31,433 nucleotides of DNA from the NCBI GenBank assembly GCA_023252055.1, contig JAHEXP010000015.1, forward strand, positions 1-31,433. Direction: 5' to 3'. Position numbers and translations under genes: made by a program. Positions 10,248-22,139 of this stretch are shown here, piece after piece. Source of the DNA: Coriobacteriia bacterium. Lineage in GTDB: Bacteria > Actinomycetota > Coriobacteriia > Anaerosomatales > PALSA-660. The notes under the pieces were generated by a model. The model saw only the letters and a program-made list of their open reading frames with translations, ran no database searches and had not been told where the DNA came from. Position 1 is the stretch's first letter. Each line of letters starts with the position of its first letter.

Positions 10248-10281
10248 GGACGGCCGTGGGCACTGAGGCCCACGGCCGTCC
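10248..10281 (-). terminator. hairpin GGACGGCCGTGGGC actgag GCCCACGGCCGTCC immediately downstream of trpB2 stop
   Basis: Perfect 14-bp stem about 25 nt after the trpB2 stop (10307) on the minus strand. No strong U-tract. It also lies upstream of the gene starting at 10146. Confidence 0.45.
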
Positions 10282-10306
10282 TGTTGCGCCGGTCAGCGTG
10301 GTCCGA

Positions 10307-11674
10307 CTACTCCGCCTGGCACAGCGTGGAGCCGGCGGCGAAGTCGAAGTCCTGCAGCTGGCCTGCGTTGTACGCGGCATAGGCTGCGAGATCGAAGTGC
10401 CCGTGACCCGACAGGTTGAAGAGGATGACCTTGTCCTCGCCTGCCGCCTGCGCCGCTTTCGCCTCGTTGATGGCGGCAAGGATGGCGTGGCTGGACTCGG
10501 GTGCGGGGAGGATACCTTCGGCGCGCGCGAACTGGACGGCGGCCGCGAAGCATGCCGTCTGATCGACGGCCACGGCCTCGGCCTCGCCCTCGTGCACGAG
10601 CTGGCTCACGAGCGGCGAATCGCCGTGATAGCGCAGGCCGCCGGCATGGATGCCCGCGGGCACGAAGTCGTGGCCGAGCGTGTACATGAGCATCTGCGGC
10701 GTCATCCCCGCTTCGTCGCCCAGGTCGTAACGGTACTCGCCCGCTGTGAGGGTCGGGCATGCCTTCGGCTCGACCGCCACCAGGCGCGCGTTGCTCTTGC
10801 CGTCCAGTTTGCGGCGATAGTACGGGAACGCGAGCCCGGCGAAGTTGCTGCCGCCGCCGACACAGGCGATGACGACGTCCGGCTCCTCATCGGCGAGCGC
10901 CATCTGCTCGATGGCCTCCTGGCCGATGATCGTCTGATGCAGGCACACGTGGTTGAGCACGGAACCCAGCGCGTAGTGGGTGCCGGGGTCCTTGACCGCG
11001 ACCTCGACCGCCTCCGAGATTGCGATGCCGAGCGAGCCGGTGGAATCGGGATCCATGGCGAGCACGTGGCGTCCGGCATCGGTCAGGTTCGTCGGCGACG
11101 AGTGCACGGTGCCGCCGTAGGTCTCCATCAGGATGCGGCGGTACGGCTTCTGGTCGTAGCTGACCTTGACCATGAACACCTCGACATCGATGCCGAAGAG
11201 CGCGCCGGCGATCGACATGGCGCTGCCCCATTGGCCGGCGCCCGTCTCGGTCGCGATCTTCGTGATGCCTTCCTGCTTGTTGTAGTAGGCCTGCGGGATG
11301 GCGGTGTTGGGCTTGTGCGAACCCGCGGGGCTCACGCCCTCGTACTTGTAGAAGATCTTGACGCCTTCGGGCAGGCCGAGTGACTTCTCGAGCTGGCGCG
11401 CGCGGAGCATCGGCGACGGGCGGTACTCCTTGTAGACGTCGATGACCGCGCCCGGGATGTCGATGTAGCGCTCCATCGACATCTCCTGCTTGAGGCACTC
11501 CATCGGGAACAGCGTGGCCATGTGCGCGCCGACCTGGTCGGGCGTGAGCTCGGTGCCGTCCGGCGCGAACGCGCGCGGCGGTGCGGGCGGGGTCTTCAGG
11601 TCCGGCATGATGTTGTACCAGGCCTCAGGGATCCTGGTCTCGTCGAGTCCGAATCTGGTCTTGTCGGATGGCAT
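10307..11674 (-). CDS. trpB2: TrpB2-type tryptophan synthase beta-chain paralog (PLP-dependent, stand-alone)
   Basis: ORF 10307..11887 minus. Real start MPSDKTRFGLDETRIPEAWYNIMPDL at 11674 with a GGGAG SD. ...GSHKPNTAIPQAYYNKQEG... is the HK(x)N PLP-lysine signature of TrpB. ...GGGSNFAGLAFPY... is the glycine loop. At about 456 aa with an N-terminal extension, it is typical of TrpB2. The upstream part of the tracked ORF is 5' leader, not coding. Confidence 0.85.
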   Translation of the reverse strand: MPSDKTRFGLDETRIPEAWYNIMPDLKTPPAPPRAFAPDGTELTPDQVGAHMATLFPMECLKQEMSMERYIDIPGAVIDVYKEYRPSPMLRARQLEKSLGLPEGVKIFYKYEGVSPAGSHKPNTAIPQAYYNKQEGITKIATETGAGQWGSAMSIAGALFGIDVEVFMVKVSYDQKPYRRILMETYGGTVHSSPTNLTDAGRHVLAMDPDSTGSLGIAISEAVEVAVKDPGTHYALGSVLNHVCLHQTIIGQEAIEQMALADEEPDVVIACVGGGSNFAGLAFPYYRRKLDGKSNARLVAVEPKACPTLTAGEYRYDLGDEAGMTPQMLMYTLGHDFVPAGIHAGGLRYHGDSPLVSQLVHEGEAEAVAVDQTACFAAAVQFARAEGILPAPESSHAILAAINEAKAAQAAGEDKVILFNLSGHGHFDLAAYAAYNAGQLQDFDFAAGSTLCQAE

Positions 11675-11773
11675 CGCGTGCTCCCTTCGAGAGTCGTGCT
11701 TGCGGTCGGCGTCAGGGTCCGTCCATGTGGACCGGCCCCATATGCGATCACTGCCCCCGGAGAAGTTCCCGGA

Positions 11774-12030
11774 CAACAGAAAAAGCCCTCGTCCTGTTAA
11801 GGGACGAGAGCTTTCGGCTCCCGCGGTACCACCCTCGTTGTCCGACCCCTCGGCCGGACCACTCGTCTCAGCGACACTCCGGCACACCCGCTGCCTTCAT
11901 GCCCGGTCCCTTGTATCGGCGGGCCTCCGCCGGAACTACTCAGCCTGCCTGCGGCCTTTGCTCCGGAGCCTCAAGGGACCATTCACGCCGACCGCTCACG
12001 CCGGTTTCCACCAACCACCGGCTCTCTGTG
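11774..12030 (-). promoter_or_regulatory. T-box riboswitch leader (Stem I GA motif through T-box/antiterminator and rho-independent terminator) controlling trpB2
   Basis: The minus-strand RNA contains the exact T-box consensus AGGGUGGUACCGCGG (plus 11819..11834). It is directly followed by an 11-bp terminator stem AGCUCUCGUCC/GGACGAGGGCU and UUUUUCUGUU (plus 11774..11811). Upstream: AGAGAG (K-turn/GA motif, about 12021..12027), GAGUAG and GCUGAG elements consistent with the Stem I AG-bay/distal loop. A long GC-rich Stem I/II region lies between. Distance from GA motif to terminator is about 255 nt, typical of T-box leaders. Confidence 0.75.
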
Positions 12031-12086
12031 CTTCGCGATCGGGCTACTCTTCCCCGTCACTGGCGTTCACGCTATGAGATTGGGAC

Positions 12087-12117
12087 GGAGGATACACGCG
12101 GCGAGGCGTGCGCGCAA
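12087..12117 (-). promoter_or_regulatory. putative sigma-70-like promoter for the T-box/trpB2 transcript (-35 TTGCGC, 17-nt spacer, -10 TATCCT)
   Basis: Minus-strand sequence TTGCGCgcacgcctcgccgcgtgTATCCT read about 55 nt upstream of the Stem I GA motif. Hexamers are approximate and not experimentally supported. Confidence 0.3.
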
Positions 12118-12155
12118 GTGAACTCCATGTGACACGTTCGGACGGCCTCCGCGCC

Positions 12156-12902
12156 TCACGCCTCCGGATGGCGCGAGCGGTACAGCAGGTACGCGTAGGC
12201 GTACGTCACGACGAGCATCACCGCCAGCGACCCGAGGAGCACGAACAGCCCGTACGTGGACGGCAAGACCGAGGAGGCCACGGTGAGCAGGCCGACCGCA
12301 ACGAACAGGTATCCGCCGAGCCGGTTCGTCTTGCTCCACACGACCTCGTCGGAGAGCGTCCAACTGACGCGAACGCCGAAGGTCCAGTTCTGCTTCACGG
12401 TGGTCATGAAGTTCCCGATGAGCGCGAACAGAAGGCCCACCGCGACGAGGATGACCTTCGCCACGTCGAAGCGGTTGTCGTAGGCCGCCAACAGGGTCGC
12501 GGCGAACACGACCGCCTCCAGGCCCACGACGGCGTCGATGACGATGTTGTACGCGCGGAACGACATCTTGAGGTTGCGCCGTTTGGGATCCAGGAAGGGC
12601 ACCACAACCAGCAGGGCGTAGACGCCTGCGGCGATGAGCGGCAGCAGGAACACGCTTCCGAACGACTTGGCGGAGAACGCGTCCGGCGCGCCGCTGATAC
12701 CCCAGTGCGTGGGGATCGGACTCGGTAGCGAGGGGTAGAGCACCGCGCCCGCGACGAACATCGCGGCCACGATCAGCAGCGGCAACTTGGTGAAATCGCG
12801 CAGCTTCGGAGGGGCGGGCAGTTCGTCGGGCGGAGCTGCGCCGACCGGTACCTGCCCGGGTGAATCCTGTGCGTCGCTCCCGAACTGACGGTCACTCGTC
12901 AT
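12156..12902 (-). CDS. DUF1648/SdpI-family membrane protein
   Basis: ORF 12156..12902 minus. After a Pro-rich N-terminus: ...LLIVAAMFVAGAVLYPSLPSPIPTHWGISGAPDAF... (DUF1648 P-x-HW motif), then four more helices (...NIVIDAVVGLEAVVFAATLL..., ...ILVAVGLLFALIGNFMTTVKQNW.FGVR..W) typical of SdpI/YhfL-like immunity/signal-transduction proteins. Confidence 0.6.
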   Translation of the reverse strand: MTSDRQFGSDAQDSPGQVPVGAAPPDELPAPPKLRDFTKLPLLIVAAMFVAGAVLYPSLPSPIPTHWGISGAPDAFSAKSFGSVFLLPLIAAGVYALLVVVPFLDPKRRNLKMSFRAYNIVIDAVVGLEAVVFAATLLAAYDNRFDVAKVILVAVGLLFALIGNFMTTVKQNWTFGVRVSWTLSDEVVWSKTNRLGGYLFVAVGLLTVASSVLPSTYGLFVLLGSLAVMLVVTYAYAYLLYRSRHPEA

Positions 12903-13028: not shown

Positions 13029-14066
13029 TCAGGGCGTCGGCGCTCCCGCCGCACCCAGTACTTCGCGCAGCCTCCCGAGGCGCTCCATCTCGGGATCGTC
13101 TTCCGGCGCGTAGCCGAAGCCGGCCCAGCAGAAGAAGAGGGCCGAGTACGCCTCCCCCGCCCCGGGGACCGTGTTGTTCGCTTCGAGAACGTGTGCGAGA
13201 GCGGTGAGCATCTGCGCGGGGTCCTTCAGCAGGAGCATGCCCTCTGCGTCGGCCTTCTCGGCGGCAGCGAGGGCGGCACGTTCGTGCCCGGCCATCAGGA
13301 CCTCGGTCAGGACCACGCCGAGGAACCCGAGTATGAACACGCCGATGACGGCTTCCGGCGTCTCGCGAGCGACTCCCGCGGACGCGCCACCGGTGAGCGC
13401 CTCTCCCCATGTGGGCTCGTCCTGCAGCAGGGCGTCCTTATGGAGCTGCTGCGCGCGCTGCCCCCAGATCGGGCCCATGATCGCCGAGAGCACTGTGGCC
13501 CACAAAGTGTCGCGTGCCGCCACGCGCGCCATCAGGTTGGCGAAGACGGCACGCTGCTCGTCGCCGCTCAGGCGCTCTGCGAACCCGCGCGTGACGCCCA
13601 CCACGATCGCGTCGTCGTGCAACCCGAGGGCGAACGCGTTGACACGGTCGCAGTCCTCGATGAGCCACAGCCACGGCGCCCCGGGCCGGCCGATCGCGAT
13701 CGCCATGTCGTGCAGCGCGGACTCGGTCACCGGAAGGGTGCCGCGCTGCGTCGGGATCGCGCCGAAGAGGCCTGCGAGGCGCGCCTCCGGCCGAGAGAGC
13801 ACCCGCACGACGTGCAGGATCGCGAGCGCGGCGCCCAGCAGGAACGCGCCGGCCATCAGCCACGGCGTCAACGAGAGGAACTCGCCACCGCCCCGGAACG
13901 TCATCACCCACAAGAGCACGCCGCCGGCGCCCACCATCAAGGCCAAGGACAGGGCCGCCGCCACGACGAACAGCGTCACGAACATCGCAACCTTCATGCG
14001 GTTGCGATCGATGCGGTCCCACAGCGGCTCCATGCGGCCGCGGCGGGCGCGCGTCCGGTCGGTCAC
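13029..14066 (-). CDS. M48/HtpX-like integral membrane protein with HExxH zinc motif replaced (predicted catalytically inactive pseudo-peptidase)
   Basis: ORF 13029..14066 minus. Its start overlaps the hisIE stop by 4 nt. Two N-terminal TM helices, then ...[44 protein letters not shown]... This aligns with HtpX ...NAFATG.....VAV..GLL.....E..AVIAHEISHI..GD, but HE..H is replaced by NL..R. Further TM helices follow ([22 protein letters not shown]). Confidence 0.55.
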
Positions 14067-14755
14067 GCGCCGCTCCCCGGCAGGCGCCCGGCCATCTCGG
14101 AGGCGAGATCTTCGGGGGTGATGCCCTCGCGGGCCAGCACGACCAGCAGGTGGTAGAGCAGGTCGCCGGCCTCGTAGCGCGTCTGAGCGACGTCGTGGTC
14201 GCGGGCCGCGATGATTACCTCGCCCGACTCCTCCGCGATCTTCTTCAGGAGCTTGTCCTGCGGGCCGCTCAGGAGCTTGGCCGTATAGCTGCCTTCCGGG
14301 AGATCACGCTTGCGCTGCTCGAGCACCGCTGCGAGTTGGCTGAGGACGTCGCCGAGCCGGAGGGGTACTCCGCCTGCATCCTGTATCTGGCCGGCCGGGG
14401 CCGGGGCCGTGGCGACGTCGAGGCTGCGGTAGAAGCAGGTCCTCTGGCCGGTGTGGCACGCGCCGTCGCCGCGTTGTTCGACCGTGACGAGCAGAGCATC
14501 GCCATCGCAGTCATAGCGGACTCCCACGACGTCCTGGACGTCGCCGGAGCTCTCGCCCTTCATCCAGTACGTCTGGCGGCTCCGGCTCCAGAACCACGTC
14601 CGGCCGCTCTCCAGTGTGCGCTCAAGGGCGGTGCGGTCCATCCACGCGAGCATCAGCACCTCGCCGGTGCCTCGCTGCTGCACGATGGCCGGCAGAAGAC
14701 TGCCCTCGCCCCATGCCAGATCGTCGAGGGCCAGCTCGTCACGTTCGAGGTCCAT
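14063..14755 (-). CDS. hisIE: bifunctional phosphoribosyl-AMP cyclohydrolase / phosphoribosyl-ATP pyrophosphatase
   Basis: ORF 14063..15211 minus. Real start [12 protein letters not shown] at 14755 with a GAGGAAG SD. ...[49 protein letters not shown]......[19 protein letters not shown] is HisI. The C-terminal ...GSYTAKLL....[14 protein letters not shown]...A.DHD......[11 protein letters not shown]... is HisE. Confidence 0.9.
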
Positions 14756-14763
14756 GGTCTTCC

Positions 14764-15579
14764 TCAGTCCTTCCACGTCAGCGGCGCCGGGCGCACGGGT
14801 GTATCGGGCACGTCGACGAGCCGGACGGGCACGCCCGCGGACGCCATCGCGGCCTTGATGTCGCGCACGCGGAACTTCCCGTAGTGCAGGGTCGACGCGG
14901 CGAGCACCGCGTCCGCGTCGGCTTCGATCACGACCTCGGCGAAGTCCTCGAGCCTGCCTGCTCCCCCGCTCGCGATCACCGGTACGCCGACGGCGCGTGT
15001 CACCGCGCGCGTGAGCGGGATGTCGTAGCCCTCGTTGGTGCCGTCGCGGTCCATGCTCGTGAGCAGGAACTCCCCCGCCCCGAGCGACTCGGCGTGACGC
15101 GCCCACTCCACCGCGTCCATCCCGGTGTTCGTGCGGCCTCCGGAGACGAAGACCTCCCAACGGTCCCGCCCTCCTGCCACCTTGCGCGCATCGATCGCCA
15201 CCACGATGCACTGCGATCCGTAGATGCGGCTCGTGGTGGTGATGAGTTCGGGCGAGGCGACCGCCGCCGAGTTGAGCGAGACCTTGTCGCAGCCGGCCTT
15301 CAGCATCGCGCGTATATCGTCGGCCGAGCGCATGCCTCCGCCCACCGTGTACGGGATGAAGACCTCATCGGCGGTGCGCGCGGCCACACCCAGCATCGTG
15401 GGACGGTCCTCGTGGGTGGCCGTGATGTCGAGGAACACGAGCTCGTCGGCGCCCTCGGCGTCGTAGAAGCGAGCGAGCTCGACCGGGTCGCCGGCGTCGC
15501 GCAGGTCCACGAAGTTCACGCCTTTGACGACGCGGCCCTCATGTACGTCGAGACACGGTATGACGCGCTTCATCAGCAT
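14764..15579 (-). CDS. hisF: imidazole glycerol phosphate synthase, cyclase subunit
   Basis: ORF 14764..15705 minus. True start [20 protein letters not shown] (15579). ...[12 protein letters not shown]...VGGGMRS..D......[12 protein letters not shown]... is the HisF (beta/alpha)8 signature. Confidence 0.9.
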
Positions 15580-15586
15580 CGGCGGA

Positions 15587-16315
15587 TCACCCGACGGCCC
15601 GGGCGGTGGAGATCGCGGTCTCGAGGTCGATCGTGCCTTCGTACAGCGCACGCCCCACGATGATGCCCTCCACGCCGTGCACCGCGGCGAGCGCCGTGAT
15701 GTCATCGAGGGTCGTCACGCCGCCGGACGCGATGATCGCGGCATCCGTCGCCAGCGCAAGCGCACGGTAGGCGCGCACGTTCGCGCCCTTCTGCATACCG
15801 TCGAGCGAGATGTCGGTGTAGACGAGCCGGTTCACGCCGAGAGCGCCGAGCTCGGCGACCACGTCGGCGACGTCCGATTCGGTGCCCTGCTTCCAGCCCT
15901 CGATCGCGACGCGCCCGTTGCGCGCATCGACGCCGGCCACGATCCCCGGCCAGCGGAAGCACGCGCGCCGCACGAAGGCCGGGTCGGTGATGAGCGCGGT
16001 GCCGAGTACCGTGCGGGCGACTCCCGCATCGTAGAGCCGCTGCAGCGTCCGCTCGCTTCGGATACCGCCGCCGACCTGGATCGGCACGTTCACCGCGGAT
16101 GCGATCGCCTCGACCGAGGCGATGTTGACCGGCTCGCCGCTGAGCGCGCCGTCGAGGTCCACCACGTGGATGATCTCGGCGCCGGACGCCTCGAAGCGCT
16201 TTGCCTGGTCCACCGGGTCGTTGTTGTAGACGGTGACCTCGTCGAAACTGCCCTGCTTCAGGCGGACGACGCGGCCGGCAAGGATGTCGATCGCAGGCAG
16301 GATCTGCGCGCTCAC
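15587..16315 (-). CDS. hisA: ProFAR isomerase HisA (possibly PriA-type bifunctional HisA/TrpF)
   Basis: ORF 15587..16651 minus. The upstream part is an out-of-frame overlap with hisH. Probable GTG start [22 protein letters not shown] at about 16315 overlaps the hisH TGA (GTGA). ...VVDLDGA..G...N...VE.I......[10 protein letters not shown]... is the HisA signature. Confidence 0.85.
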
Positions 16316-16953
16316 AGGTGCGACTCCTCGGTCACGATGGCGGCGAATTCGCGCAGGAGCGCGAGTCCGCACGCGGACGACTTCTCGGGGTGGAACTGCA
16401 CGCCGTACACGTTGCCGCGGCGCACCGCAGCGGCGAGCGGTATCCCGTACGTGGTGGTGCCGATGACCACGGTCGGATCGTCCGGCACCAGATGATAGCT
16501 GTGCACGAAGTAGAACGCGCTGCCCTCCGGCACACCGGCGAACAGCCGGCTGGCGCGCGGATAGTCGACGGTGTTCCAGCCGATGTGCGGGACCTTCACA
16601 TCCGCTTCGATGCGGCGGCACTGTCCCGGCACGAGGTCGAGGCCCGCCCACTCACCGTCTTCGAGGCCGACCGTCGCAAGAAGCTGCATACCCAGGCAGA
16701 TCCCGAGCACGGGCACGCCGGCGGCCGCTCGCTCCAAGAGAACCTCCCGCAGCCCCGAGGACGCGAGGTTGGCGGCCGCGTCGCGGAACGCGCCCACGCC
16801 GGGCAACACGATGCCGGCCGCGCGCTCGACAACCCGCGGATCGTCGGTGACGGTCACGCCCTCCACGCCGGCGGCGGCCAGCCCCTTCTCGACGCTGCGC
16901 AGGTTGCCCATGCGGTAATCGAGTATCGCGATGTTGGGCAGGGCGTCGCTCAT
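16312..16953 (-). CDS. hisH: imidazole glycerol phosphate synthase, glutamine amidotransferase subunit
   Basis: ORF 16312..16953 minus. MSDALPNIAILDYRMGNLRSVEKGL...LPGVGAFRDA...VPVLGICLGMQLL (Cys nucleophile) ...HIGWN...YFVHSY. Confidence 0.92.
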   Translation of the reverse strand: MSDALPNIAILDYRMGNLRSVEKGLAAAGVEGVTVTDDPRVVERAAGIVLPGVGAFRDAAANLASSGLREVLLERAAAGVPVLGICLGMQLLATVGLEDGEWAGLDLVPGQCRRIEADVKVPHIGWNTVDYPRASRLFAGVPEGSAFYFVHSYHLVPDDPTVVIGTTTYGIPLAAAVRRGNVYGVQFHPEKSSACGLALLREFAAIVTEESHL

Positions 16954-16981
16954 GACCCGTCCCGTCCGGGAGCGGCGGGCG

Positions 16982-17569
16982 TCACAGGACGCCCTTGGTC
17001 GACGGCACGCCGGTCACCCGGGGATCGAGTTCCACCGCCTCGCGCAGTGCGCGGGCGAGCGCCTTGAACGCCGCCTCCACGATGTGGTGCGCGTTGTCGC
17101 CGCTGACCTCGTGCAGGTGCAGGGTGATGCCGGCGTTCACCGCGAGCGCCGCAAGGAACTCACGGGCCAACGTCGTGTCGAACGTTCCGATGAACTCGAT
17201 CGGCACCTCGACATCGTAGGTCAGCGACCCGCGGCCTGAGATGTCGACCGCTGCGAGTACGAGCGCCTCGTCCAGAGGAACCGCAGCCGATCCGAAACGC
17301 CGGATGCCCGCGCGATCGCCGAGGGCCGAGGCGAGCGCCAGCCCGAGGCAGATGCCGGTGTCCTCCACCGTGTGATGCGCATCGACCTCGAGGTCGCCCC
17401 GGGCCTCGACCGAGATGTCGATGAGGGAGTGGCGGCCGAGCGCGTCGAGCATGTGATCGAAGAACGGTACGCCGGTGGCGACGGACACCTTCCCGGTGCC
17501 GTCCAAGTCGATCTCGAGGATGACCGAAGTCTCGTTGGTCTCACGCTCGATGCGTGCGCTGCGTGCCAT
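16982..17569 (-). CDS. hisB: imidazoleglycerol-phosphate dehydratase
   Basis: ORF 16982..17569 minus. ...RIERETNETSV.LEIDLDGTG...TGVPFFDHMLDAL..HSLIDISV.A.GDLEVD.HHTVEDTGI.LG... is the IGPD signature. Confidence 0.92.
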   Translation of the reverse strand: MARSARIERETNETSVILEIDLDGTGKVSVATGVPFFDHMLDALGRHSLIDISVEARGDLEVDAHHTVEDTGICLGLALASALGDRAGIRRFGSAAVPLDEALVLAAVDISGRGSLTYDVEVPIEFIGTFDTTLAREFLAALAVNAGITLHLHEVSGDNAHHIVEAAFKALARALREAVELDPRVTGVPSTKGVL

Positions 17570-17609
17570 TGCCCGGCCTCTTTCCGTACGTCGTCGAAGA
17601 TGCGGGGGA

Positions 17610-18758
17610 TCAGTCGAGCGGGCCGGACTCGCCTACGGCCGAGTCGAGTTCATCGCGGCTGGTGGTGCCGAACATGTCGCTCGCGCGGCGTTCGGTCATC
17701 AGGTGCTCCATCGCCTTCAGGAACGCCGAGTTCTCCGCCATCGAACCGATGCTGACGCGCAGACAGTCCTCAAGGCCGGGGACGCGGGACAGGTCGCGCA
17801 CGAGGATGCTGTGCGAGTGCAGCAGGTCGCGCCAGACCGCGGCTGCGCGGTCCACGCGGAACAGGACGAAGTTCGCTTCACTGCGGAAGACCTTGACGCC
17901 CGGGATCTGTGAAAGCCCATGCTCGATCACGTCGCGCTGCCGCAGCAACTCCTGGATCTGCGACTCGAAGACGACCCGCTCCCGGAACACGAGGCCCGCC
18001 GCCCACTGGCTGAACCGGTCGACGGAGTACGGCTGCCGGACCTTCGTCAGCTCCATGACGACGTCTTCGTGCGCGAGCAGGTAGCCCACGCGCAGCCCGG
18101 CGAGCGAGAACGCCTTACTGAACGTACGCAGGATGACGAGGTTCGGGTGCCGCTCCATGTGCGGCCTCATCGTGTGCCGCGAGAACTCGAAGTACGCCTC
18201 GTCCACCAGCACCAGCGCGTCGGTCGCCTTGAGCACGTCGATGAGGAACGTCTCGGGCGCGATGTTGCCGGTGGGGTTGTTCGGGTGCGAGATCATCACG
18301 ATATCGATGTCGCCCAGTGCGAGCCGCTCGAAGACCGCCCGCTCGTCGACGGTGAAGTCCTTCTCACGGCGCGGCACCTCTGCGATCGTCGTCCCCGTCA
18401 GGCGGGCGTCGATCTCGTACATGGCGAAGGTCGGCGGCAGGTTGAGCAGCGTGCGCCCCGGGCCGCCCCACGCGAGCATGAGGTCGAATATCAACTCGTC
18501 GCCGCCGTTGCCCACGAGCACGTTGGCGGGATCCAGCCCGTTCGCCTCGGCGATCTGCGCGCGAAGCTGCGAGGCCATCGGATCCGGGTAGCGGTTGAAC
18601 GGGAACGTCGGGAGCCGCTGCGCCATCGTCGCCAACAGTTCGTGCGGCAGGTTGGACGGGTTCTCGTTCGCGGCCAAGTTGATATCGACGCTCGGCTCGC
18701 GGGCATCGTAGGCGGACATGTCGGCCAGGTCCGGGCGCGGGGGGCGGAGGGCGCCCAC
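17610..18758 (-). CDS. hisC: histidinol-phosphate aminotransferase
   Basis: ORF 17610..18758 minus. ...INLAANENP..LP..L.........NRYPDP....L...IA......P.NVLVGNG.DE.I.......G... and ...RTFSKAFSLAGLRVGY... (PLP Lys) indicate a class II aminotransferase. Alternative start at MSAYDAR (18719). Confidence 0.9.
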   Translation of the reverse strand: MGALRPPRPDLADMSAYDAREPSVDINLAANENPSNLPHELLATMAQRLPTFPFNRYPDPMASQLRAQIAEANGLDPANVLVGNGGDELIFDLMLAWGGPGRTLLNLPPTFAMYEIDARLTGTTIAEVPRREKDFTVDERAVFERLALGDIDIVMISHPNNPTGNIAPETFLIDVLKATDALVLVDEAYFEFSRHTMRPHMERHPNLVILRTFSKAFSLAGLRVGYLLAHEDVVMELTKVRQPYSVDRFSQWAAGLVFRERVVFESQIQELLRQRDVIEHGLSQIPGVKVFRSEANFVLFRVDRAAAVWRDLLHSHSILVRDLSRVPGLEDCLRVSIGSMAENSAFLKAMEHLMTERRASDMFGTTSRDELDSAVGESGPLD

Positions 18759-18761
18759 GGC

Positions 18762-20099
18762 TCAGGCCTCCCCGTCGAGCGCAGCGTCGGCCTCGGCTTC
18801 GGCGTCGGCCTCGGCGGCGAGCTCGAGGCGCAGCGCCACAGCGTCCGCGTGAGCATCGAGGCCCTCTGCGGATGCGAGCGTGATCACCGTGGCGGCATCG
18901 GCTTCGAGGGCCGAGCGAGAGTACGAGATGACCGATGACTTCTTCATGAAGTCGTCGACGGACAGCGGGCTCGAGAAGCGGGCGGTACCTCCGGTGGGGA
19001 GGACGTGGTTCGGGCCCGCCACGTAGTCGCCCACCGACTCCGGGGTCCACGGACCCAGGAAGATGGCGCCGGCGTTGCGCACCTGACCGAGAAGCTCGAA
19101 CGGCTCGGCCATCATGATCTCGAGGTGCTCCGGCGCGATCGCGTTCGCTACATCGATGGCGGCCGACTCGTCCTCGACCACGACGACAAGGCCGTTGTCG
19201 GCAAGGCTGCGGCGGATGATCTCCGATCGCGGCGCCTCGGCGAGCAGCACCTCCAGCGCCTCCTCGACCTCGTCGGGGAGCGTCGGGTCGCACGTGACGA
19301 GGAACGTCTGCGCGTTCGGATCGTGCTCCGCCTGGGCCATCAGGTCGATGGCGACGAACGCCGGCTCGGCGGTCTCGTCAGCCACCACACACACCTCGGA
19401 GGGACCGGCGAGCATGTCGATCCCCACGTCACCCACGACGAGCTTCTTCGCCGCTGTGACGTACGCGTTGCCCGGTCCGGTGATCTTGTCGACGCGCGGG
19501 ATGGAGCGGGTGCCGAACGCGAGCGCCGCGATCGCCTGCGCGCCGCCCACCTTGTAGATCTCGGAGACGCCGGCCTCGGCGGCCGCGGCCAGCACGTAGG
19601 CGCTCACGGTGCCGTCCTTCGCGGGCGGCACGACCATCGCGATCTCCTCGACACCCGCGACCACGGCGGGTATCGCGTTCATGAGCACGCTTGAGGGGTA
19701 GCTGGCACGACCGCCGGGCACGTAGATGCCCACGCGGCGCAACGGCGTGACCTTCTGGCCGGTGAAGATGCCCTCCTGCGTCGTGAACCACGACTGCGGG
19801 ACCTGGCGCTCGTGGTACTGCTCGATCGATGCGGCGGCGGCTGCGAGGGCGTCGCGGAACTCCACCGGCACGGAGGCGACCGCCGCCTCGATCTCCTCGC
19901 TCGTGACGCGAAGGACCGGCACGTCGACGCCGTCGAACTTCTCCGTGTACTCGCGCAGCGCGTCGTCGCCGCGCTGGCGGACGTCTTCGACGATGCGCGC
20001 CGCCACCGATAGGACCTCAGGATCCACGCCGCCGGCAGGGCGCAACGTACCTTCCGGCAGCATCCGGCCCCGCGCGAGTTCGACCCGTCTCATGATCAT
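18762..20099 (-). CDS. hisD: histidinol dehydrogenase (with acidic low-complexity C-terminal tail)
   Basis: ORF 18762..20099 minus. ...YTEKFDGVDV..LRV...E...A.......DALAAAAASIEQYHERQ... and ...GPSEV.VVAD..A.PAFVA.DL.AQAEHDP.A...LVT... are HisD signatures. The tail ...LELAAEADAEAEADAALDGEA is low complexity. Confidence 0.9.
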   Translation of the reverse strand: MIMRRVELARGRMLPEGTLRPAGGVDPEVLSVAARIVEDVRQRGDDALREYTEKFDGVDVPVLRVTSEEIEAAVASVPVEFRDALAAAAASIEQYHERQVPQSWFTTQEGIFTGQKVTPLRRVGIYVPGGRASYPSSVLMNAIPAVVAGVEEIAMVVPPAKDGTVSAYVLAAAAEAGVSEIYKVGGAQAIAALAFGTRSIPRVDKITGPGNAYVTAAKKLVVGDVGIDMLAGPSEVCVVADETAEPAFVAIDLMAQAEHDPNAQTFLVTCDPTLPDEVEEALEVLLAEAPRSEIIRRSLADNGLVVVVEDESAAIDVANAIAPEHLEIMMAEPFELLGQVRNAGAIFLGPWTPESVGDYVAGPNHVLPTGGTARFSSPLSVDDFMKKSSVISYSRSALEADAATVITLASAEGLDAHADAVALRLELAAEADAEAEADAALDGEA

Positions 20100-20764
20100 G
20101 CGAGCACTCCCCCTCCGTCCGCCAGCGCCGCGTCCTGCAAGCGGCGGGCGATTTCCGTCACACGTTCGGCGTCGATCCTCATGGCCACCGGGTTCGCGAC
20201 GAACCGGGCGCTCGAGTCCATGACGTCCTCCACGATACGCAATCCGTTCTCCCGAAGGGTGGTTCCCGTTGCCGTGATGTCGACCACACGGTCCGCGAGG
20301 CCCACCAGCGGGGCGAGTTCGATGTTCCCGTGAAGCTTCACGAGCTCCACCTGTATGCCCTTGGCGGCGAAGTGCGCCTCGGTGATGCGCGGGTACTTCG
20401 TCGCGACCCTGATCACTCCCAGGCGGCGGTACGAGCTCTCGACGTCCTCCGTGGCGCCTTCACGCTCCGCGACCACGAACTTGCATGCACCGAAGTACAG
20501 GTCCGCGAGCTCCGCCACATCCAGTGCGGCCTCGGCCAGAACGTCCGCCCCTGCGATGCCGACATCAGCAGCGCCGTAGGCGATATACGCCGGGATATCG
20601 GTGGGCTTGCAGATGATGAACCGCATGTCCGCGGTGTCGATGATGAGCTGACGGCCCGGGTCGGCGAGCGCGCCGGTCTCGACGCCGGCACGGCTCAGTA
20701 TCTCGATCGTTCCCGGAAAGAGCGCTCCCTTGGGGACCGCCATGCGCAGTCGCGTCTCAGCCAT
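20096..20764 (-). CDS. hisG: ATP phosphoribosyltransferase, short (HisZ-dependent) form
   Basis: ORF 20096..20818 minus. Real start MAETRLRMAVPKGALFPGTIEILSRAGV at 20764, with ATG overlapping the hisZ stop (TGATG). Length about 222 aa, lacking the C-terminal regulatory domain of long HisG. ...RFIICKPTDIPAYIAYGAADVGIAGADVL... is the HisG signature. Confidence 0.9.
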   Translation of the reverse strand: MAETRLRMAVPKGALFPGTIEILSRAGVETGALADPGRQLIIDTADMRFIICKPTDIPAYIAYGAADVGIAGADVLAEAALDVAELADLYFGACKFVVAEREGATEDVESSYRRLGVIRVATKYPRITEAHFAAKGIQVELVKLHGNIELAPLVGLADRVVDITATGTTLRENGLRIVEDVMDSSARFVANPVAMRIDAERVTEIARRLQDAALADGGGVLA

Positions 20765-22095
20765 CACAGGCCCCCATCCGTCATCGGAGCAGTGCTCTCG
20801 GCATCCGAGGCCGCACAACGCCCTGTAGGGGCCATGGCGAGCGTCGGAGGCGCCGTTGGCACGCTGATGTCCTCACTGCCGCCGTCCGACGTCCGGTGGG
20901 CCGCGCCCTCACCGGCCAGCGCCCACATCGCGGAGCCTGCCTCGCGCGCTTCGCACTCGACGGCTGCCGCCTCAGCGGACGAGGTCATGCGGACGCGCCA
21001 GCCCTGCGCGCGCAGGCGTGCGGCGAGACGTACGACGTCGAGCGGGGCCCCGCCCACGACCACGTCGAGGCCCCGCACCGGGACCGAGATCCCCTGCCCA
21101 GCCAGCGCGATCATCACACGCTCTAGGGAAAGGGCGAACCCGGCAGCCGGCATCGGAGCGCCGAAGGCAGCCAGCACGTCGTCGTAGCGGCCGCCGCCGC
21201 CGAGAGGGAGACCCAGGCCCGGCGCGTACGCCTCGACGATCATGCCGGTGTAGTAGTCGAACGAGCGCAGTATCCCGAAGTCGACCCGCACGCGCGCGGC
21301 TGCGCCAGCCGCCTCCAAGAGGTCCCAGGTGGCTTCGAGCGCGTCGAGCGACGCCGCACATCCGACCGCCCCCACCGCGGCACGGCATGCTGCGATCGCC
21401 TCGCGCCCTCCCGCGATCCGCACCACCGCGCGCAGCGCATCGCCCGCCGCGGGAGCGACGCCCGCCTCACCGGTCAGCGCGTCGAACGCGACGAGGTTGC
21501 GCGAGTGCGCCGCCGCCAGCAGGGACTCTGCCCACGATCGGCCGGCTCCTGCGGCGTCGATGAGCGCCTTCAGTACCGCGACCGTTCCGATGCCCACGGT
21601 GAAATCGGGCAGGCCGGCGGCGGTCAGTGCGTCCACGAGCACGCACACGACCTCCGCGTCGGAGGCAGGGCCGTTCACCCCCAGGAGTTCCACGCCGAGC
21701 TGCGTGAACTGGCGGGCCTCACCGCGCAGGGAGGCTTGCTCGCGATACACGTCGGCCGTATAGCAGATGCGCTGCGGACCGGTGTCGGCCGAGAGGCGTG
21801 AGGCCGCGAGGCGGGCGATCGGCAGCGTCATCTCAGGACGGAGCGCCAGCAGCGAGCCGTCGAGGTCGACCATACGGAACGCGGTCCCCTGAAGCGTGGC
21901 GCCCGCGGCCGTCTCCAGGGTGGCGTACTCTTCCACCGCCGGTGTCTCGACGCTGCGGTACCCGAAACGGGCGAACGCGTCGGAGACCGCTGCGGTCACC
22001 GCGCCGCGCTCGGCTGCTTCGTCGTAGAGGACATCGCGGAATCCTCGAGGTGTCACGGGGCGCATCTGCGTGCCTTCCCAGGTTCGTGTCGCCAT
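20764..22095 (-). CDS. hisZ: ATP phosphoribosyltransferase regulatory subunit (HisS paralog) with C-terminal extension
   Basis: ORF 20764..22116 minus (tool start is a GTG). Candidate starts are ATG 22095 (MATRTWEGTQ) or ATG 22065 (MRPVTPRGFRDVLYDEA). The latter matches the class II aaRS-like N-terminal P.G..D.L..E motif. ...FRMVDLDGSLLALRPEMTLPIARL... is HisS-like motif 1/2 without full catalytic conservation. About 440 aa, 50 aa longer than typical HisZ. Confidence 0.8.
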   Translation of the reverse strand: MATRTWEGTQMRPVTPRGFRDVLYDEAAERGAVTAAVSDAFARFGYRSVETPAVEEYATLETAAGATLQGTAFRMVDLDGSLLALRPEMTLPIARLAASRLSADTGPQRICYTADVYREQASLRGEARQFTQLGVELLGVNGPASDAEVVCVLVDALTAAGLPDFTVGIGTVAVLKALIDAAGAGRSWAESLLAAAHSRNLVAFDALTGEAGVAPAAGDALRAVVRIAGGREAIAACRAAVGAVGCAASLDALEATWDLLEAAGAAARVRVDFGILRSFDYYTGMIVEAYAPGLGLPLGGGGRYDDVLAAFGAPMPAAGFALSLERVMIALAGQGISVPVRGLDVVVGGAPLDVVRLAARLRAQGWRVRMTSSAEAAAVECEAREAGSAMWALAGEGAAHRTSDGGSEDISVPTAPPTLAMAPTGRCAASDAESTAPMTDGGL

Positions 22096-22139
22096 CGTGT
22101 GCACGCGGACGTGCACACTCCGGACGGTCGGTTCGGTGC

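What the first reader, a model, noticed from the sequence alone, without database searches (positions are those of the whole stretch)
11675..12120. T-box riboswitch (transcription-attenuation type) in the leader of a stand-alone trpB2, with UGGU bulge implying an A73 tRNA effector
Seen in sequence: the minus-strand leader carries a perfect T-box sequence AGGGUGGUACCGCGG. It is immediately followed by a strong terminator hairpin plus U-tract. Stem I-like elements (AGAGAG K-turn, GAGUAG, GCUGAG) lie about 250 nt upstream. The spurious plus-strand ORFs here are therefore not genes.

Established knowledge: the variable N of the UGGN antiterminator bulge pairs with the tRNA discriminator base. Here N=U predicts A73. 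Bacterial tRNA-Trp normally has G73, and Trp T-boxes carry UGGC.

Inference: either this organism's tRNA-Trp is atypical, or the leader senses a different uncharged tRNA, and the 'TrpB2' may serve another amino-acid pathway (for example a serine/indole or beta-substituted alanine reaction). The exact T-box consensus together with a Trp-family gene and a non-Trp discriminator prediction deserves a look.
Basis: partly seen in the sequence, partly recalled or inferred. Interest (0 to 1): 0.75.

Follow-up and report, generated by a model that had tools for sequence, protein, structure and literature searches.

The report
Ordinary tryptophan T-box before lone trpB2
This is a normal tryptophan-sensing T-box RNA switch; its "odd" UGGU is found in about half of such switches, and what is mildly unusual is that the tryptophan operon it once controlled has shrunk to the single gene trpB2.

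Summary
A full-length T-box leader lies on the minus strand at 12069..11797. It scores 89.4 bits against Rfam RF00230 (E 4e-20), just under the curated cut-off of 93. It has a canonical antiterminator, with bulge UGGUACC, that competes with a -22 kcal/mol terminator plus U-tract, about 105 nt upstream of a genuine trpB2 (10307..11674, minus).

The interpretation does not hold. The specifier is UGG (Trp), placed directly after the GAA of the S-turn. It is conserved in all 17 aligned orthologous leaders from related uncultured Coriobacteriia, and 15 of the other 16 head complete trp operons. The variable base of UGGN is only ever U or C in these leaders and in Chloroflexota Trp T-boxes, never A or G. 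That pattern fits pairing with G73 (G-C or G.U). TBDB reports U in 46% of Trp T-boxes whose tRNA-Trp has G73. So no atypical tRNA or non-Trp effector is needed.

Synteny adds one point. The nearest relatives carry SdpI-[T-box]-trpE-trpGD-trpC-trpB2-trpF-trpB1-trpA-ZapG-like at this locus. The window has lost both flanking blocks and keeps only leader plus trpB2. This suggests Trp-starvation-induced indole salvage. The clade's tRNA-Trp could not be retrieved.

The parts
12089..12117 (-). Candidate promoter: TTGCGC (12117..12112), 17-nt spacer, TATCCT (12094..12089). It is weak and inferred only.
   Evidence: Read from the sequence. The consensus scan found no strong sigma-70 site. Relatives have a -10-like TAGAGT, TACAGT or TATAGA at a similar distance before Stem I.
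11969..12069 (-). T-box Stem I: K-turn base, specifier loop (AGUA at 12048..12045, GAA at 11984..11982), AG bulge AGAGAG (12027..12022) and distal loop GGUUGGUGGAAA.
   Evidence: Rfam alignment to model positions 1-103. Helices are supported by compensatory changes in 17 orthologues.
11979..11981 (-). Specifier codon UGG (Trp). It is followed by U11978 instead of the usual purine.
   Evidence: Rfam alignment 'GAA-UGGU CCC'. GAAUGG is invariant in all 17 aligned leaders. U11978 pairs with A12051 in the minimum-free-energy fold.
11862..11968 (-). Stem II, the Stem IIA/B region (with CCGAUA, the F-box-like element) and the variable linker.
   Evidence: Rfam alignment. Consensus fold with covariation in helices 6, 7 and 10.
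11840..11859 (-). Stem III hairpin.
   Evidence: Eight of its 9 pairs show compensatory changes across orthologues (helix 11).
11799..11836 (-). Antiterminator, containing the T-box sequence. The 7-nt bulge UGGUACC is at 11831..11825 and the variable base U is at 11828.
   Evidence: Fold at -16.9 kcal/mol with the canonical bulge. Rfam alignment.
11780..11815 (-). Intrinsic terminator: stem 11815..11781 and U-run 11784..11780. Its 5' arm overlaps the 3' arm of the antiterminator.
   Evidence: Terminator scan. Fold at -22.1 kcal/mol, z -4.48.
11701..11766 (-). Deletion junction. Sequence above it matches the post-terminator leader of the relatives. Sequence below it matches their trpC-trpB2 spacer. 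trpE, trpGD and trpC (4.09 kb in L007) are missing.
   Evidence: blastn against L007. Local alignments.
11681..11688 (-). Shine-Dalgarno GAAGGGAG, not sequestered by the T-box structures.
   Evidence: Read from the sequence.
10307..11674 (-). trpB2, a TrpB-like PLP enzyme of 455 aa.
   Evidence: NCBIfam PRK12391 and TIGR01415 above cut-off. Pfam PALP. Best solved relatives are 6hul_B, 4qys_B and 6hte_B (two of them labelled tryptophan synthase beta chain 2), with the GSHK lysine motif aligned. dN/dS about 0.10 against relatives.
10248..10282 (-). Strong hairpin just after the trpB2 stop, marking the end of the one-gene unit. trpF, trpB1 and trpA (2.79 kb in L007) are missing between here and the ZapG-like gene.
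   Evidence: Fold at -45.1 kcal/mol, z -5.5. blastn and tblastn synteny.

Best explanation
This is a canonical transcription-attenuation T-box riboswitch specific for tRNA-Trp, controlling a one-gene trpB2 unit. Transcription starts near 12085 (minus strand; inferred). Stem I binds the tRNA-Trp anticodon CCA through the UGG specifier and binds the tRNA elbow through its distal motifs. If the tRNA is uncharged, its 3' end GCCA pairs with the bulge UGGU (U-A, G-C, G-C and a U.G wobble to G73). This stabilises the antiterminator, so RNA polymerase reads through into trpB2. If the tRNA is charged, the more stable terminator forms and transcription stops at the U-tract. The leader is orthologous to the leader of the complete trp operon in sister lineages. 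Here two deletions removed trpE-trpGD-trpC and trpF-trpB1-trpA, leaving leader plus trpB2. The likely physiological role is tryptophan-starvation-induced synthesis of Trp from scavenged indole. Shown here: the RNA family, structure and specifier, the gene identity and the operon reduction at this locus. Inferred: the tRNA pairing details, regulation in vivo, the indole-salvage role, and whether other trp genes exist elsewhere in the genome.
For: RF00230 full-length match, E 4e-20, within the 81-102 bit range of orthologues. The consensus fold of 17 orthologous leaders reproduces the T-box architecture: 96% of cells paired, and 27 of 63 pairs have compensatory changes against 15.7 +/- 1.8 in shuffles and 5-9 in slid controls. 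The terminator (-22.1 kcal/mol) and antiterminator (-16.9 kcal/mol) are mutually exclusive. The specifier GAA|UGG is invariant. The variable base is U or C only in about 29 Trp T-boxes seen here. 46% of Trp T-boxes have U opposite G73 (PMC7778990). G73 is the bacterial tRNA-Trp discriminator, and the TrpRS residues that read it are strictly conserved in bacteria (PMC12135181). TrpB2 identity. Synteny and deletions. Purifying selection on trpB2. T-boxes before 'trpB-like' genes were reported in Dehalococcoides (PMC2494555) and are seen directly upstream of trpB2 in eight Chloroflexota-type loci here. An indole-salvage role of TrpB2 was shown in Thermococcus kodakarensis (Hiyama 2014, as cited in PMC11085991).
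Against: The tRNA-Trp of this organism or clade was not retrieved: there are no tRNA genes in the window or in loci L001-L080 that are tRNA-Trp. G73 is therefore inferred from general bacterial knowledge and from the U/C pattern. The base after the specifier is U, not the conserved purine, in the window and its three closest relatives. The Rfam score is just below the curated threshold. No strong promoter consensus was found. There are no expression data. Only 31 kb of the genome is visible, so the other trp genes may be elsewhere.
Confidence: 0.9

Rival explanations
1. The leader senses a tRNA with A73 other than tRNA-Trp. The only structurally conceivable candidate is tRNA-Met. If U11978 pairs with A12051, counting back from the end of the specifier loop reads AUG followed by the purine G, and UGGU would pair perfectly with A73.
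For: The minimum-free-energy fold of Stem I pairs A12051 with U11978, which puts UGG at the very end of the loop. TBDB-type pipelines define the specifier by distance from the loop end and do consider shifted frames (PMC7778990). UGGU is a Watson-Crick match for A73.
Against: The codon follows the S-turn GAA directly in the covariance-model alignment. The A of AUG would be the last base of that conserved GAA, so every Trp T-box contains 'AUG' trivially. Thirteen of 17 orthologous leaders have UGG followed by A or G. Eleven orthologues have C at the variable base, which cannot pair with A73. Three leaders with UGG-A also have UGGU (L008, L012, L020), so the two features are not linked. The regulated genes are trp genes in every case.
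Confidence: 0.03
2. The T-box is a non-functional scar left when the trp operon was deleted, and trpB2 is expressed constitutively or is decaying.
For: The locus has clearly undergone deletions. The Rfam score is slightly sub-threshold. The conserved purine after the specifier is replaced by U.
Against: Every conserved T-box element is intact, and the score lies within the range of leaders that head complete operons. The U after the specifier is shared with L007, L092 and L093, which control full operons. trpB2 is intact with dN/dS about 0.10. An intact terminator without a working antiterminator would silence trpB2, which conflicts with purifying selection on it. An independent lineage (L091) retains the same leader plus beta-subunit design.
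Confidence: 0.05
3. The stand-alone arrangement is an assembly or binning artefact, and the real genome has the full operon.
For: The window appears to come from an uncultured lineage, since all close relatives are MAGs. The exact TrpB2 protein is not on record in the public gene index.
Against: Two separate gene blocks are missing on either side of trpB2, each cut at gene boundaries, with colinear flanks on both sides (SdpI and leader; ZapG-like). The sequence is 77-85% identical to its nearest relative throughout, so it is not a mosaic of near-identical reads. Misassembly normally joins at repeats, and none is evident at the junction.
Confidence: 0.03

Closest known systems
Trp-specific class I (transcriptional) T-box leaders of trp operons and trp-related genes, Rfam RF00230
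   Same: It has the full architecture: K-turn, specifier loop with S-turn, AG bulge and distal loop, Stem II, IIA/B, Stem III, and an antiterminator with a UGGN bulge competing with an intrinsic terminator. The specifier is UGG. The U at the variable base is as in 46% of catalogued Trp T-boxes.
   Different: The host is a high-GC uncultured Coriobacteriia lineage. The score is just under the Rfam threshold. A U replaces the conserved purine after the specifier. The leader controls a single gene.
Dehalococcoides/Chloroflexota T-box upstream of a 'trpB-like' gene (Wels et al. 2008, PMC2494555)
   Same: A Trp T-box sits immediately upstream of a trpB2-type gene. The same arrangement is seen here in loci L031, L072, L079, L095, L102, L130, L153 and L155.
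   Different: In at least L031 and L079 the full trp operon lies a few kb downstream. In the window the arrangement arose secondarily, by deletion from a trpE...trpA operon, and no other trp gene is within 31 kb.
Actinobacterial ileS T-boxes (translational type, Seliverstov et al. 2005, PMC1262725)
   Same: Same phylum and same RNA family.
   Different: Those act by sequestering the Shine-Dalgarno sequence and have a shortened Stem I. This one has a full Stem I and a terminator with a U-tract, and its Shine-Dalgarno lies about 90 nt downstream and is free.
Indole-salvage trp remnants, for example trpBA in genital Chlamydia trachomatis (PMC4042155; bioRxiv 10.1101/2020.05.03.075317, listed) and TrpB2 in Thermococcus kodakarensis (Hiyama 2014, cited)
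   Same: Only the indole-to-Trp step is retained after loss of the upstream pathway. Expression is tied to tryptophan limitation.
   Different: The regulator here is a tRNA-sensing RNA rather than TrpR/YtgR. The enzyme is the TrpA-independent TrpB2 type. Loss of the pathway is shown only for this locus, not for the whole genome.

Membership tests
T-box leader (Rfam RF00230) | Significant full-length match to the family covariance model | tested here: met
   89.4 bits, E 4.3e-20, model positions 1-219 of 219. This is below the curated gathering score of 93, but orthologues span 81-102 bits.
T-box leader (Rfam RF00230) | Conserved T-box sequence forming an antiterminator with a 7-nt bulge that starts with UGGN | tested here: met
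   AGGGUGGUACCGCGG is at 11835..11821. The fold shows the bulge UGGUACC.
T-box leader (Rfam RF00230) | Stem I with a specifier loop (S-turn AGUA/GAA), a codon, an AG bulge and a distal loop | tested here: met
   Rfam alignment. Helices are supported by covariation.
T-box leader (Rfam RF00230) | Conserved purine immediately 3' of the specifier codon | tested here: not met
   The base is U11978 in the window, L007, L092 and L093. It is A or G in the other 13 orthologues. This is a minor deviation shared with leaders that head full trp operons.
Transcriptional (class I) T-box | An intrinsic terminator mutually exclusive with the antiterminator, followed by a U-tract | tested here: met
   The terminator at 11815..11781 (-22.1 kcal/mol) shares 11811..11799 with the antiterminator. 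UUUUU is at 11784..11780.
Trp-specific T-box | UGG specifier in the canonical frame, with a downstream gene of Trp metabolism | tested here: met
   GAA|UGG. The gene is trpB2. Orthologous leaders head trpE-GD-C-B2-F-B1-A operons.
Trp-specific T-box | The variable base of UGGN can pair with the discriminator of the host tRNA-Trp | not testable with these tools
Indirect support: only U or C occurs at this base in about 29 Trp T-boxes, bacteria use G73, and 46% of Trp T-boxes have U.
Trp-specific T-box | tRNA-Trp-dependent antitermination in vitro or in vivo | not testable with these tools
   This needs an experiment.
TrpB2 (TrpB-like PLP enzyme, TIGR01415 / PRK12391) | Score above the curated cut-offs of the family models, and not of TrpB1 | tested here: met
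   PRK12391 scores 682.9 bits (cut-off 366) and TIGR01415 scores 601.3 (cut-off 518.85). TrpB1 model TIGR00263 scores 151.5, below its cut-off of 392.
TrpB2 (TrpB-like PLP enzyme, TIGR01415 / PRK12391) | PLP-binding lysine motif present | tested here: met
   GSHKPNT aligns with GSHKINT of 6hul_B.

The most novel reading that the evidence does not exclude
In this uncultured Coriobacteriia lineage the seven-gene trp operon has been whittled down to a T-box-controlled trpB2 alone. Independently, in the L091 lineage, it has been reduced to T-box-trpB2-trpB1. If no trp genes exist elsewhere in the genome, the organism is a tryptophan auxotroph that depends on environmental indole and switches on its salvage enzyme when tRNA-Trp is uncharged. 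That would be a recurrent, riboswitch-preserving route to indole cross-feeding in anoxic communities.
Probability: 0.4. Interest if true: 0.4.

Novelty: new member of a known kind. Interest (0 to 1): 0.2.

Why it matters
For the question raised, it matters mostly as a correction. UGGU in a Trp T-box is normal and does not predict an A73 effector. The specifier frame should be anchored on the S-turn GAA rather than counted from the end of the loop. Two practical points follow. First, the Rfam gathering threshold misses genuine T-boxes in this high-GC clade (window 89.4, L091 83.3 and L016 80.9 bits against a threshold of 93). Second, the window gives a clean natural example of operon reduction in which the riboswitch and the TrpA-independent beta subunit are the only survivors. 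This supports the indole-salvage role proposed for TrpB2 and hints at indole cross-feeding in the sediment and groundwater communities where these MAGs occur.

Tried and rejected
(1) The default Rfam scan at the gathering threshold found nothing in the window. The E-value mode was needed.

(2) An exact look-up of the TrpB2 protein in the public gene index found nothing on record, so the source genome could not be identified.

(3) I looked for the clade's tRNA-Trp. ARAGORN on the window and on loci L001-L080 found no tRNA-Trp. No route existed to fetch the secE/nusG neighbourhood of a relative, so the discriminator was not read directly.

(4) Vitreschak 2008 (PMC2271356) and Grundy 1994 (PMC196270) are not held in the library. 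Grundy 1994 is cited only through TBDB.

(5) The consensus promoter scan found no strong sigma-70 site. The promoter listed is a weak manual candidate.

(6) I considered the alternative specifier frames AUG (Met) and GGU (Gly) and rejected them. AUG uses the last A of the conserved S-turn GAA. GGU would need a tRNA-Gly whose discriminator is U73 (my own knowledge), which calls for UGGA. The orthologues and the operon content also argue against both.

(7) A whole-window Rfam E-value scan found no second T-box or other RNA family, for example none before the his operon.

Full report
**Observation.** On the minus strand, upstream of the ORF 10307..11674, the window carries the sequence AGGGUGGUACCGCGG (11835..11821). 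It is followed by a GC-rich hairpin and a U-run. The default Rfam scan reported nothing. In E-value mode RF00230 (T-box leader) matches 12069..11797 over the whole model (positions 1-219) at 89.4 bits. The E-value is 4.3e-20 for the region and 2.1e-18 for the whole window. The curated threshold is 93 bits. Orthologous leaders in related genomes score 80.9-102.1 bits, so the shortfall is a property of this high-GC clade and not a sign of a defective element. The terminator (11815..11781 with UUUUU at 11784..11780) folds at -22.1 kcal/mol, and none of 200 shuffles does as well. The alternative antiterminator (11836..11799) folds at -16.9 kcal/mol with the canonical 7-nt bulge UGGUACC. The two plus-strand ORFs across the leader have neither a coding-like GC3 pattern nor any Pfam match. 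Only some motif labels were wrong: AGAGAG is the distal AG bulge, not the K-turn.

**The gene.** The ORF encodes 455 aa. It scores above the curated cut-offs of the TrpB2 models PRK12391 (683 bits) and TIGR01415 (601 bits), and far below that of canonical TrpB. Its best solved relatives are 6hul_B, 4qys_B and 6hte_B, two of which are labelled tryptophan synthase beta chain 2. The PLP-lysine motif GSHK is conserved. A -45 kcal/mol hairpin follows the stop codon. The next gene is an unrelated ZapG-like protein, so the unit holds one gene.

**Specifier.** The covariance-model alignment places GAA (the S-turn) at 11984..11982, UGG at 11981..11979, then U11978, then the closing CCCU helix. The specifier is therefore UGG, tryptophan.

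**Relatives.** I fetched TrpB2 loci from genomes and metagenomes. The closest TrpB2 proteins (73-93% identity) are all from uncultured Coriobacteriia or Anaerosomatales-type Actinomycetota MAGs. Leaders homologous to the window's leader were found in 18 of these loci. GAAUGG is invariant in the 17 that were aligned. RNAalifold on that alignment recovers Stem I, Stem II, IIA/B, Stem III and the antiterminator. Across the structure 96.2% of cells are paired. Twenty-seven of 63 pairs show compensatory changes, against 15.7 +/- 1.8 in column shuffles and 5-9 when the partners are slid. The structure was derived from the same alignment, which favours it somewhat, but the margin is large.

**The discriminator argument.** TBDB, a survey of 23,535 T-boxes, states that 46% of Trp T-boxes have U at the variable position while their cognate tRNA has G at the discriminator. 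It reads this as a G:U wobble, already noted by Grundy et al. in 1994 (PMC7778990). Bacterial tRNA-Trp carries G73. The TrpRS residues that read it (Gln152 and Glu155 in E. coli) are reported as strictly conserved in bacterial TrpRSs (PMC12135181).

My own sample agrees.
- Among the 18 orthologous Coriobacteriia leaders the variable base is U in 7: the window, L007, L008, L012, L020, L092 and L093.
- It is C in 11: L009, L011, L013, L015, L016, L017, L019/L084, L021, L082, L088 and L091.
- Among more distant Trp T-boxes, mostly Chloroflexota, it is again U or C.
- A or G never occurs.

U/C alternation is what pairing to G predicts (G.U or G-C). It is incompatible with A73, which C cannot pair. 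I could not read the clade's tRNA-Trp directly. No tRNA-Trp lies in the window or in loci L001-L080, and the collection scans were exhausted. This remains the one untested link.

**A nuance.** In the window and its three closest relatives (L007, L092, L093) the base after UGG is U rather than the conserved purine. The single-sequence fold pairs this U with A12051. A rule that counts back from the end of the loop would then read AUG followed by G, which is Met, whose tRNA has A73 (my own knowledge). I reject this reading for four reasons.
- The A of that AUG is the last base of the conserved S-turn GAA, so every Trp T-box contains 'AUG'.
- Thirteen of the 17 orthologues have UGG followed by A or G.
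- UGGU also occurs with UGG-A (L008, L012, L020), so the two features are not linked.
- The three relatives with UGG-U head complete trp operons.

**Context and history.** Protein and DNA comparisons show conserved synteny. In L007, L092 and L093 the order is his operon, HtpX-like, SdpI, [Trp T-box], trpE, trpGD, trpC, trpB2, trpF, trpB1, trpA, ZapG-like. The window has his operon, HtpX-like, SdpI, [T-box], trpB2, ZapG-like.
- Window 12831..11767 aligns with L007 4743..5809, covering SdpI through the terminator.
- Window 11700..10307 aligns with L007 9895..11290, covering the trpC-trpB2 spacer through the trpB2 stop.
- So 4.09 kb (trpE-GD-C) is absent upstream and 2.79 kb (trpF-B1-A) is absent downstream.
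- No other trp gene is detectable in the 31-kb window.

All other close relatives with enough flanking sequence have trpC before trpB2. The full operon is therefore ancestral and the window's state is derived. trpB2 itself remains under purifying selection, with dN/dS about 0.10 against five relatives, similar to 0.089 between two full-operon relatives.

A second, independent reduction exists in metagenome contig L091. Its leader is 94% identical to that of the full-operon locus L016, but it is followed only by trpB2-trpB1 and then nadE.

A Trp T-box immediately before trpB2 is also common in Chloroflexota-type loci. It was reported for Dehalococcoides in 2008 (PMC2494555).

**Mechanism.**
- Shown here: a complete Trp T-box with competing antiterminator and terminator in front of an intact trpB2.
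- From established knowledge of T-boxes: uncharged tRNA-Trp binds the specifier through its anticodon and the UGGU bulge through its 3' GCCA end. This stabilises the antiterminator and allows read-through. Charged tRNA cannot do so, and the terminator forms.
- Inferred: because every gene needed to make indole has been lost from the locus while the TrpA-independent beta subunit and its sensor were kept, the unit most likely serves Trp-starvation-induced indole salvage. This matches the role shown for TrpB2 in Thermococcus kodakarensis (Hiyama 2014, cited in PMC11085991). Whether the genome lacks the pathway altogether is unknown.

**Verdict.** The finding is a real but ordinary member of a well-known riboswitch family. 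The feature that made it look interesting is a known and frequent property of Trp T-boxes. The idea that TrpB2 serves a non-Trp pathway has no support. The modest added value is threefold: the documented operon reduction, the sub-threshold Rfam scores in this clade, and the U after the specifier. Interest is 0.2. Novelty: a new member of a known kind.

Noticed in passing
L091 3003..8341 (Ga0209066_10000767): This is a second, independent trp-operon reduction. The leader is 94% identical to that of the full-operon locus L016 but is followed only by trpB2-trpB1 and then nadE. trpE/GD/C, trpF and trpA are absent. The two retained genes are more diverged (79-81% nt) than the flanks (90-94%).
   Followed up: partly
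L037 991 and 7469 (CADDYS010000057.1): Two identical Trp T-box leaders of about 340 nt lie in one locus, one before trpE and one before trpGD-trpC-trpB2-trpF. About 5 kb of unexamined sequence lies between trpE and the second copy.
   Followed up: no
window 11797..12069; L091 3051..3319; L016 5437..5705: Genuine Trp T-boxes of this high-GC clade score 81-89 bits against RF00230, below the gathering score of 93. Default Rfam annotation therefore misses them.
   Followed up: yes
window 11978 (minus strand), also L007, L092, L093: A U replaces the conserved purine 3' of the specifier codon and can pair with A12051. This closes the specifier loop directly after UGG. Its effect on tRNA binding is unknown.
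   Followed up: partly
L003 and L018 (both from MAG JAFGNP01, Zod_Metabat.552): One MAG holds two trpC-trpB2 loci, with TrpB2 88% and 77% identical to the window's. This could be two trp operons in one genome or mixed populations in the bin.
   Followed up: no
window 14063..22116 (minus strand): A long his operon lies upstream: a HisRS-like (hisZ-type) gene, hisD, hisC, hisB, hisH, hisF and hisIE. No T-box or other Rfam element precedes it in the window.
   Followed up: partly
L031 8151..17994; L079 9871..21214: In Dehalococcoidia-type loci a Trp T-box directly precedes trpB2, and the trpE-G-D-C-F-trpB1 cluster follows 1.3-1.7 kb downstream. There trpB2 appears to be a separately regulated gene next to a full operon.
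   Followed up: partly
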